64,000 nt of DNA. Origin: a virus. A program made the position numbers and the translations under genes. The notes under the pieces were generated by a model, which worked only from the letters and a program-made list of their open reading frames with translations, was not told the origin of the DNA and searched no databases. The stretch spans positions 31,753 to 95,752 of the IMG/VR virus record IMGVR_UViG_3300029309_000006, one strand, 5' to 3'. Shown here one piece after another: positions 56,752-56,874 of the stretch (the stretch's first letter is position 1; every line of letters begins with the position of its first letter).

Positions 56752-56874
56752 GAGAGGTAGAAGTTGTGGACTGGTAGTTAACTAGTATTGTCATTTATCC
56801 ACACTTTCTGTTTTGTAAGCACTAGCTCAATCGCCCGACATCTTACTAACGTGACCAGTATGCCGCCACCTCTC
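56752..56874 (-). ncRNA. Putative structured ncRNA of unknown class
   Basis: Terminal helix GAGAGGTGG/CTACCTCTC; inner ACTGGT/ACCAGT, GTAAG/CTTAC, TGTGGA/TCCACA; GC-enriched and apparently non-coding. Confidence 0.5.

What the first reader, a model, noticed from the sequence alone, without database searches (positions are those of the whole stretch)
56752..56874. Highly self-complementary 123-nt RNA immediately upstream of the mini-tmRNA
This apparently non-coding, GC-enriched block is closed by a 9-bp terminal helix whose G.U pair favours the - strand. It contains more complementary pairs than can nest (ACTGGT/ACCAGT, GTTA/TAAC, GTAAG/CTTAC, TGTC/GACA, CTAGT/ACTAG, TGTGGA/TCCACA), suggesting pseudoknots or a switch. 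It ends 4 nt before the tmRNA 5' end, so RNase P processing would release it. Class unknown: it could be a 6S-like RNAP decoy, a ribozyme, a protein sponge, or a trans-acting partner of the mini-tmRNA.
Basis: partly seen in the sequence, partly recalled or inferred. Interest (0 to 1): 0.7.

Follow-up and report, generated by a model that had tools for sequence, protein, structure and literature searches.

The report
New pseudoknotted phage RNA before tRNA-like genes
The flagged 123 bases are a real member of a previously uncatalogued, knotted small-RNA family of uncultured marine phages. It almost always sits 3-4 bases in front of a tRNA-shaped gene, so the cell's tRNA-trimming enzyme probably cuts it free; its job is unknown.

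Summary
Observation confirmed. Window 56874-56752 (- strand) is one copy of a conserved RNA family that I call the E-element. It gave 43 true hits in IMG/VR and at least 120 in marine metagenomes. It was absent from 50,697 phage records, essentially absent from 185,579 cellular genomes, and has no Rfam 15 match even at E<=10.

Two alignments (33 and 63 distinct sequences) support a 12-bp closing helix P1, a 5-bp helix P3 and a 6-bp pseudoknot. About 93% of cells are paired, against 33-51% for slid controls, and 10-13 pairs show compensatory changes. Two near-invariant G.U pairs fix the RNA strand. The single-sequence fold alone was not significant (z -1.57).

There is a long form with a hypervariable P2 arm and a ~76-nt short form. 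In 111 of 122 distinct contexts the element ends 3-4 A/U bases before a tmRNA-like alanine tRNA-like domain or a tRNA-Met. It is one optional module in shuffled phage ncRNA arrays downstream of a conserved 62-aa zinc-finger gene.

Best reading (about 0.45): a self-contained small RNA released by tRNA-processing enzymes, displaying an invariant loop to an unknown partner. The 6S-like, known-ribozyme and tmRNA-fragment readings were tested and not met. The scan had noted mini-tmRNAs on other DNA, but not this element.

The parts
56752..56874 (-). E-element, long form, 123 nt: the flagged RNA
   Evidence: Covariance model R1 scores 128.6 bits, E 8e-29. It aligns with 32 other distinct viral copies.
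56863..56874 (-). P1 5' strand (GAGAGGUGGCGG)
   Evidence: Pairs with 56752-56763. Six of 12 pairs (A1) and 9 of 12 (A2) show compensatory changes. Two pairs are near-invariant G.U.
56752..56763 (-). P1 3' strand (CUUCUACCUCUC)
   Evidence: One C-U mismatch in this copy at a position that is C-G in 30 of 33 sequences.
56854..56859 (-). Pseudoknot 5' strand (ACUGGU)
   Evidence: 100% paired with 56770-56775 in all sequences. The third position is U-A 30, A-U 17, U.G 12 and never mismatched. The pseudoknot was not part of the model that made alignment A2.
56770..56775 (-). Pseudoknot 3' strand (ACCAGU), lying in the loop closed by P3 and directly abutting the P3 3' strand
56799..56803 (-). P3 5' strand (UGUGG)
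   Evidence: Pairs with 56765-56769. Three of 5 pairs show compensatory changes (U-A/C-G/G-C; G-C/U-A/A-U).
56765..56769 (-). P3 3' strand (CCACA)
56776..56798 (-). Loop L2 (AUAAAUGACAAUACUAGUUAACU), mostly invariant and unpaired: the candidate functional surface
   Evidence: Invariant columns A78-A82, A85, A87-G94, T96, A97 and T100 in A1. No role has been shown.
56816..56845 (-). P2 variable arm, with TAAG/CTTA at its base
   Evidence: The insert between the conserved CACGUUAG and AAAACAGAAAG ranges from 26 to 111 nt in A1. There are 52 distinct inserts, and their ends pair in 36 of 52 MFE folds. The arm is absent from the short form.
56748..56751 (-). AUAA linker between P1 and G1 of the tRNA-like domain; the expected RNase P site lies at 56748/56747
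   Evidence: The linker is 3-4 nt and A/U-only across the family. Cleavage is inferred, not shown.
56602..56747 (-). tmRNA-like tRNA-like domain (GGGCGUG/CACGUCC acceptor with G3:U70, T-arm, no tag frame). Its P2 carries an inserted sub-module at about 56652-56708.
   Evidence: Rfam RF00023, 45.2 bits, E 1.4e-16. ARAGORN finds nothing.
56876..56944 (-). 'Leader motif': closing helix GUCAG/CUGAC around GACGAGUAGCUUAAUUAGG, a variable hairpin, then CAUAAGUGAAUAGC. It lies 1 nt upstream of the E-element.
   Evidence: The 19-mer occurs in 60 viral loci. There are 82 distinct copies, with a 5-bp closing helix 85-100% paired against 14-25% when shifted, and compensatory changes.
56949..57137 (-). 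62-aa CxC...CxxC zinc-finger gene whose 3' untranslated region holds the three RNAs
   Evidence: 148 homologues of 34-109 aa at 66-94% identity, with no Pfam or PHROG family. The same gene end precedes the arrays in most loci.
57144..57172 (-). Promoter-like site ending 6 nt before the ATG at 57137
   Evidence: Consensus scan only. No terminator-like site between 56300 and 57500.

Best explanation
The element is a self-contained, exonuclease-resistant small RNA module carried in the 3' untranslated part of an early phage transcript.

The order on the transcript is: zinc-finger gene, leader motif, E-element, tRNA-like domain.

A 12-bp closing helix insulates a compact core. In that core one continuous strand (ACCAGU-CCACA) pairs with two separated upstream strands, which forms a pseudoknot. 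The knot displays about 20 invariant unpaired bases (GGAUAAA..AAUACUAGUUA).

The element is released by tRNA punctuation. RNase P cutting at G1 of the adjacent tRNA-shaped gene would leave the element with a 3-4-nt A/U tail. That tail is too short for 3' exonucleases to grip.

In the rarer arrangement, where the element follows a tRNA-like domain, tRNA 3' processing would free its 5' side.

The displayed loop then acts in trans on an unknown host or phage factor.

Shown: family, fold, strand and context rule. Inferred: cleavage, stability, trans action. Unknown: the target.
For: 1. Strong selection on an RNA fold.
   - About 93% of cells are paired, 10-13 pairs show compensatory changes, and the pseudoknot is 100% paired.
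   - The preference is strand-specific because of G.U pairs.

2. Invariant unpaired loop bases persist across copies whose P2 arm is completely unrelated.

3. Context rule.
   - 111 of 122 distinct contexts have a tRNA-like domain or tRNA-Met starting a fixed 3-4 A/U bases after P1.
   - Most of the rest have one more small helix-closed module and then a tRNA-like domain.

4. The element can stand without a following tRNA-like gene.
   - In L123 it is followed directly by the next gene's promoter region.
   - In L152 it follows a tRNA-like domain and ends the array.
   - Its function is therefore not tied to one neighbour.

5. Unrelated helix-closed modules occupy the same slot before tRNA-like domains in other phages. 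This fits interchangeable 'cargo' RNAs.

6. The element is optional. The closest relative of this window's tRNA-like domain (L005) lacks it. Only 8 of the 60 leader-bearing loci carry it.

7. The sequence occurs in contigs of metatranscriptome libraries.
   - One 193-nt contig covers the leader plus the E-element.
   - Another bridges a relative's E-element into tRNA-Met.
Against: - No discrete RNA ends have been seen. Only assembled contigs were available, and these break at sequence shared between phages, so they cannot show RNA termini.
- No partner is known. The complement of the invariant loop is not enriched in five Flavobacteriales genomes.
- A helix only 3-4 nt from the cleavage site could hinder rather than permit RNase P.
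- The element is joined to the upstream leader motif by a single base, and nothing is known to cut there. The released species may therefore be leader plus E-element, or the whole upstream mRNA.
Confidence: 0.45

Rival explanations
1. Cis-acting 3'-end cap. RNase P cutting at the tRNA-like domain makes the 3' end of the upstream zinc-finger mRNA. The element's stable closing helix and knot then protect that mRNA from 3' exonucleases, as the MALAT1 triple helix does upstream of mascRNA.
For: - The element lies in the 3' untranslated region of the same gene in most loci.
- In L089 and L091 it starts at the stop codon itself.
- It leaves a fixed 3-4-nt tail.
- No terminator is found in the unit.
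Against: - A plain hairpin would suffice, so the invariant loop and pseudoknot are left unexplained.
- The element is optional, whereas the gene is not.
- It also follows other RNA modules and other genes (L046, L062/L127, L152).
- It has no U-rich clamp or A-tract like a triple-helix element.
Confidence: 0.25
2. Functional partner of the tag-less tmRNA mimics. The element works with the alanine-accepting tRNA-like domains, for example by helping them fold or be processed, or by binding SmpB, EF-Tu or AlaRS. The aim would be to disable or redirect host ribosome rescue.
For: - 100 of 122 contexts are followed by a tRNA-like domain with the G3:U70 alanine identity pair.
- tRNA-like-domain-only tmRNAs are known in phage DS6A, and a similar molecule inhibits tmRNA, perhaps by titrating SmpB (PMC4131195, PMC11915505).
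Against: - The same element precedes tRNA-Met in 11 contexts and stands alone in 2.
- Many tRNA-like domains have no E-element.
- There is no consistent complementarity between the element and the tRNA-like domain (by eye).
- The phage encodes no SmpB.
Confidence: 0.12
3. A new class of self-cleaving ribozyme that processes the array.
For: - Compact pseudoknotted core with invariant unpaired bases.
- Position at processing junctions in a polycistronic RNA.
- Phages are known to place small ribozymes next to tRNAs (theta ribozymes, PMC10879173).
Against: - No match to any Rfam ribozyme at E<=10, on either the long or the short form.
- The topology (closing stem around an a-b-a'-b' knot) is not the HDV-like nested double knot.
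- The hammerhead-like CUGGUCA is base-paired and varies at a position that is invariant in hammerheads.
- The short form has no second stem.
- RNase P already explains the 3' cut.
Confidence: 0.07
4. Selfish or neutral insertion: a small mobile DNA with terminal inverted repeats, or a recombination scar, with no RNA function.
For: - Presence/absence differs between close relatives.
- The ends are inverted repeats.
- Sub-modules are shuffled between scaffolds.
Against: - Compensatory changes keep three helices, including a pseudoknot that DNA inverted repeats do not need.
- G.U pairs make the signal strand-specific.
- There is one copy per genome, always in the transcribed orientation and the same slot.
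- No target-site duplication is seen.
Confidence: 0.05

Closest known systems
Stable RNAs of unknown function in the phage T4 tRNA cluster (species 1 and 2, rnaC/rnaD); own knowledge, not checked here
   Same: Small structured phage RNAs co-transcribed with tRNA genes and cut out of the precursor by the tRNA-processing machinery, with function unknown.
   Different: No sequence or fold relation is known. The E-element is a pseudoknot with a long closing helix, and it sits beside tmRNA-like domains in marine phages of probable Flavobacteriia hosts.
MALAT1 / MEN-beta 3' end plus mascRNA (RNase P makes the 3' end upstream of a tRNA-like RNA); own knowledge
   Same: A structured element lies immediately 5' of a tRNA-like domain, so RNase P cleavage would leave a protected 3' end.
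   Different: It is eukaryotic. The protection there is a U-rich/A-tract triple helix, which is absent here. Cleavage has not been shown here.
Upstream pseudoknot domain plus tRNA-like structure of plant RNA viruses (TMV, TYMV); own knowledge
   Same: A pseudoknot lies directly upstream of an aminoacylatable tRNA-like structure at the end of a viral RNA.
   Different: Those lie at genome 3' ends of eukaryotic RNA viruses and are not expected to be separated. Here a bacterial RNase P site lies between the two.
Tag-less 'TLD-only' tmRNA of mycobacteriophage DS6A (PMC4131195, PMC11915505)
   Same: This is the class of the element's downstream neighbour at 56747-56602.
   Different: It describes the neighbour, not the element. 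No upstream pseudoknot module is mentioned in the passages on DS6A that I read.
GOLLD and ROOL ornate phage RNAs (Rfam RF01998, RF03087)
   Same: Phage or prophage structured RNAs of unknown function that lie next to tRNA genes.
   Different: They are far larger (about 500-800 nt). No Rfam match was found here.

Membership tests
Any Rfam 15 family (4227 models) | Score at or near the family's gathering threshold | tested here: not met
   No match over the element at E<=10, in a 901-nt scan of the window or a 101-nt scan of a short-form copy. Scans of 20 related loci gave only tRNA and tmRNA.
6S RNA | Rod of about 180 nt with a large central bubble mimicking an open promoter | tested here: not met
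   The covariation-supported fold is a 12-bp stem closing a pseudoknot. The short form is only about 76 nt. No Rfam 6S match.
HDV-like / theta ribozymes | Nested double pseudoknot with strand order P1-P2-P3-P3'-P1'-P4-P4'-P2' and cleavage at the 5' end | tested here: not met
   The observed order is P1-a-(P2)-b-a'-b'-P1', with the 5' and 3' ends paired to each other. No Rfam match.
Hammerhead ribozyme | Three stems around the invariant CUGANGA...GAAA core | tested here: not met
   CWGGUCA is base-paired in the pseudoknot, and its second base varies U/A with a compensating partner. The short form lacks the second stem.
Self-cleaving ribozyme of any class | Site-specific self-scission | not testable with these tools
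   Needs in vitro transcription and a cleavage assay.
tmRNA (as a displaced pseudoknot or tag-coding part) | Homology to a tmRNA pseudoknot, or a tag reading frame that starts with an alanine codon and is conserved as protein | tested here: not met
   The Rfam tmRNA match stops at 56747. Model R1 finds nothing better than E 0.66 in 16 Flavobacteriales tmRNA loci with filters off. The candidate frame GCG GCA UAC UGG changes W to R at a base that covaries with its pairing partner.
tRNA-punctuated (RNase P-released) RNA | A tRNA-shaped domain with acceptor stem and T-arm begins a few bases after the element | tested here: met
   111 of 122 distinct contexts, with a 3-4 nt A/U-only linker. Window: AUAA, then GGGCGUG.
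tRNA-punctuated (RNase P-released) RNA | RNA 3' end at the predicted cleavage site | tested here: inconclusive
   One metatranscriptome contig ends at 56746. Contigs break at sequence shared between phages and cannot show RNA ends.
Riboswitch | Aptamer upstream of a regulated gene, with an expression platform | tested here: not met
   tRNA-like genes lie downstream, not coding genes. No terminator is present. No consistent alternative pairing with the acceptor strand (by eye).
Miniature inverted-repeat mobile element | Many dispersed copies, either orientation, target-site duplication | tested here: not met
   One copy in the 95.7-kb genome and one per locus, always in the same slot and orientation. 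The helices include G.U pairs and a pseudoknot.

The most novel reading that the evidence does not exclude
The element is one effector in an undescribed, recombining toolkit of phage small RNAs. In this toolkit, arrays of helix-closed modules can be nested in one another's hairpin tips or strung in tandem. The modules are punctuated by alanine-accepting tmRNA-like domains. Together they reprogramme host translation quality control or RNA processing early in infection. The E-element's invariant loop would bind a specific host factor.
Probability: 0.3. Interest if true: 0.85.

Novelty: new variant of a known kind. Interest (0 to 1): 0.62.

Why it matters
Phage tRNA clusters are usually read only as codon-supply devices. 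Here a family of marine phages packs the 3' end of an early transcript with conserved, knotted RNAs and tag-less tmRNA mimics. These are built from modules that are shuffled between genomes.

The E-element is abundant (more than 120 metagenome copies). It is well defined, with a minimal form of about 76 nt, and it is unknown to Rfam and to the searchable literature. That makes it a tractable new RNA for structure and partner hunting.

If it is released by RNase P and acts in trans, it would be a bacterial-virus counterpart of tRNA-punctuated non-coding RNA biogenesis. It could also point to a host factor that phages need to neutralise.

Tried and rejected
- ARAGORN finds no tRNA or tmRNA in the window.
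- Rfam at gathering thresholds finds nothing in the window.
- GenBank phage records gave nothing for the array: no match at E 1e-5 and only chance 25-38-nt hits at E<=10.
- Cellular genomes gave three short MAG contigs only. These are probably phage DNA in bins.
- The single-sequence fold is not significant.
- Coding was rejected.
  - P2 lengths are not multiples of three.
  - The short form lacks the AUG.
  - The + strand 51-aa ORF at 56788-56943 spans the variable arm.
- Derivation from a host tmRNA pseudoknot was rejected (one MAG tmRNA compared by blastn-short).
- A search for an antisense target of the invariant loop failed. The 11-mer complement occurs 0-1 times per Flavobacteriales genome, no more than the reversed control.
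- SmpB is not encoded by the phage.
- Literature searches by topic and by sequence words found no description of the element.
- RNA libraries gave contigs only. Parts without cover, relative depths and contig ends are not used as evidence.
- One literature query failed on syntax.
- The RNase P RNA and 16S helix-24 look-alike words that I noticed (AGAUAAAUGA, GUCCACxAC, ACAGAA) were recalled from memory. They are in a different order and have no Rfam support, so I treat them as coincidence.

Full report
WHAT IS THERE

The window is part of a 95.7-kb IMG/VR virus record of about 31% G+C. Its primase-helicase is closest to phages of Cellulophaga, Tenacibaculum and Flavobacterium (33-44% identity). 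The sequence occurs in marine metagenomes of 11 studies.

On the - strand, a promoter-like site (57172-57144) precedes a 62-aa CxC...CxxC gene (57137-56949). After the gene comes a 347-nt stretch with no coding potential, made of three tightly packed RNA modules:
- a 'leader motif' (56944-56876);
- one base later, the flagged element (56874-56752);
- four bases (AUAA) later, a tmRNA-like tRNA-like domain (56747-56602).

The tRNA-like domain scores 45.2 bits on Rfam tmRNA, against a gathering score of 47. It has a GGGCGUG/CACGUCC acceptor with G3:U70 and no tag frame.

THE OBSERVATION

The fold of the single sequence is not significant: z -1.57, with 14 of 200 shuffles as good. The case therefore rests on relatives.

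RELATIVES

- An exact motif from the conserved core found 49 viral loci, 43 of them true copies.
A covariance model built from the viral copies confirmed 70 of the 80 listed.
- There is one copy per locus and one in the whole phage genome.
- The element is absent from 50,697 GenBank phage records.
- Among 185,579 cellular genomes it appears only on three short MAG contigs.
- Rfam 15 gives nothing, even at E<=10, on the long or the short form.
- Sequence-word and topic searches of the literature found no description.

STRUCTURE

I tested one structure on two alignments: 33 distinct viral sequences (A1) and 63 distinct metagenome sequences (A2). The structure has three helices:
- P1, 12 pairs, which closes the element;
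- P3, 5 pairs;
- a 6-pair pseudoknot between ACWGGU (just after P1) and ACCWGU (inside the P3 loop, directly abutting the P3 3' strand).

| Measure | A1 | A2 |
|---|---|---|
| Cells paired | 92.9% | 92.8% |
| Cells paired, slid controls | 33-51% | 35-51% |
| Pairs with compensatory change | 10 | 13 |
| Shuffles (of 500) reaching the observed covariation | 0 | 0 |

The pseudoknot was not in the model that aligned A2. It is 100% paired in both alignments. In A2 its variable position is U-A 30, A-U 17 and U.G 12.

Two P1 positions are G.U in more than 90% of sequences.

There are two forms:
- The long form has a hypervariable arm P2 between the invariant CACGUUAG and AAAACAGAAAG. There are 52 distinct inserts.
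- The short form, about 76 nt, lacks that arm.

About 20 unpaired bases of the P3 loop are invariant (GGAUAAA..AAUACUAGUUA).

CONTEXT RULE

In 122 distinct contexts that were not cut by a contig end:
- 100 are followed, after 3-4 A/U-only bases, by a tRNA-like domain starting GGGCGUGA, GGGAGUGA or a close variant;
- 11 are followed by a tRNA-Met (CAU);
- most of the remaining 'other' cases have one more small helix-closed module and then a tRNA-like domain.

Two cases are informative. In L123 the element is followed directly by the next gene's promoter region. In L152 it lies after a tRNA-like domain and ends the array. So the element does not need a particular neighbour.

It is also optional. 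L005, the only other viral contig that carries this window's tRNA-like-domain 3' end exactly, joins the leader motif straight to the tRNA-like domain. Only 8 of the 60 leader-bearing loci carry the element.

Other, unrelated modules, each closed by a helix ending 0-5 nt before G1, fill the same slot elsewhere.

THE LARGER SYSTEM

The arrays follow the same highly conserved 62-aa gene, which has 148 homologues and no Pfam or PHROG family.

The leader motif is itself a conserved structured RNA. There are 82 distinct copies, and the closing helix is 85-100% paired against 14-25% when shifted.

Modules are nested as well as strung:
- The leader motif sits inside a tRNA-like domain in L178.
- The sub-module in this window's tRNA-like domain (GUAUGUGG...ACGGAAGUGUAUUAC) is the hairpin tip of the leader motif in other phages.
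- One P2 insert of the element also occurs in another module's arm.

The leader motif shares two octamers with Flavobacteriales tmRNAs, but in permuted order. The E-element shows no such relation.

MECHANISM

Shown: a selected, strand-specific, pseudoknotted fold with an invariant displayed loop, placed a fixed 3-4 nt before tRNA-shaped genes.

Inferred from established tRNA and tmRNA biology: RNase P cuts at G1. This leaves the element with a 12-bp terminal helix and a tail too short for 3' exonucleases. Where the element follows a tRNA-like domain, tRNA 3' processing would free its 5' side.

I therefore read it as a tRNA-punctuated small RNA whose loop acts on an unknown partner (confidence 0.45).

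Rivals:
- A cis cap for the upstream mRNA, of the MALAT1-mascRNA type (0.25). It explains the helix and the tail but not the invariant loop or the optional presence.
- A helper of the tmRNA mimics (0.12). Its use before tRNA-Met and its stand-alone copies count against this.
- A new ribozyme (0.07). No known class fits, and RNase P already explains the cut.
- A selfish insertion (0.05). Covariation and single-copy placement contradict it.

EXPRESSION

Contigs from metatranscriptome libraries contain the sequence. One 193-nt contig covers exactly the leader plus the E-element (56938-56746). Another bridges a relative's E-element into tRNA-Met. Contigs cannot show RNA ends or exclude DNA carry-over, so this is presence only.

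KNOWN VERSUS NEW

The downstream neighbour belongs to the known class of tag-less tmRNA mimics. These occur in mycobacteriophage DS6A, and a similar molecule inhibits tmRNA, perhaps by titrating SmpB (PMC4131195, PMC11915505). The scan had already met that class on other DNA.

The E-element itself is not catalogued. It resembles, in kind, the stable RNAs processed out of the T4 tRNA cluster and the MALAT1-mascRNA arrangement (own knowledge). In sequence and fold it is new.

VERDICT

The feature is real and the family is new. Function remains open. Interest 0.62.

Noticed in passing
window 56876-56944 (-); L005-L064: The 'leader motif' is a conserved structured RNA: closing helix, GACGAGUAGCUUAAUUAGG, variable hairpin, CAUAAGUGAAUWGC. 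It directly follows the zinc-finger gene in 60+ viral loci. There are 82 distinct copies with a covarying 5-bp closing helix. It is not in Rfam.
   Followed up: partly
L235, L242, L248 (Flavobacteriales tmRNA loci) versus window 56922-56940: Cellular Flavobacteriales tmRNAs carry GCUUAAUU, then a hairpin, then GA(A/C)CGAGUA just after the tag stop. The phage leader motif has the same two octamers joined in the opposite order. This hints that it derives from, or mimics, that tmRNA region.
   Followed up: partly
L178 around 290-400 (+): A tRNA-like domain whose P2 tip holds a complete leader motif. This shows that these modules can be nested inside one another as well as placed in tandem.
   Followed up: no
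window about 56652-56708 (-): Sub-module GUAUGUGG...ACGGAAGUGUAUUAC is inserted in the P2 helix of the window's tRNA-like domain. The same module forms the hairpin tip of the leader motif in L009, L010, L016 and L020, among others.
   Followed up: no
window 56711-56727 and 56632-56642 (-); L123, L042, L045: The motif AAGAAAUAGGAG...CACACUAACUU forms the base of the P2 helix of the tRNA-like domain. It also occurs as a free-standing small hairpin or as a leader-motif tip in other phages.
   Followed up: no
L007, L012, L017, L022, L046 and others: Another recurrent module has a T-arm and an AACUAG/CUAGUU acceptor-like stem that ends ACAAA (GGAACUAGGU...GGUUCGAAUCCUCACUAGUUACAAA). It is a second, non-alanine kind of tRNA-like RNA in these arrays.
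   Followed up: no
window 56949-57137 (-): The 62-aa protein has CxC-x16-CxxC (CKCNNIIPDGRIKLGYRTCVKC), which resembles the DksA/TraR zinc-finger pattern. It has 148 homologues at 66-94% identity and no Pfam or PHROG hit. It is almost always the gene upstream of the RNA arrays.
   Followed up: partly
window 56560-56600 (-) and G000:C1 89845-89883, 90178-90218, 90687-90710: An AT-rich motif of about 40 nt directly after the tRNA-like domain is repeated upstream of other small early genes. It is probably the early promoter. No terminator-like site separates the RNA array from it.
   Followed up: partly
L013, L022, L044, L055: Other pre-tRNA-like-domain modules carry a hairpin loop with (G)UAAAUGAC. 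The same words lie in the E-element's invariant loop, so this may be a shared recognition motif.
   Followed up: no
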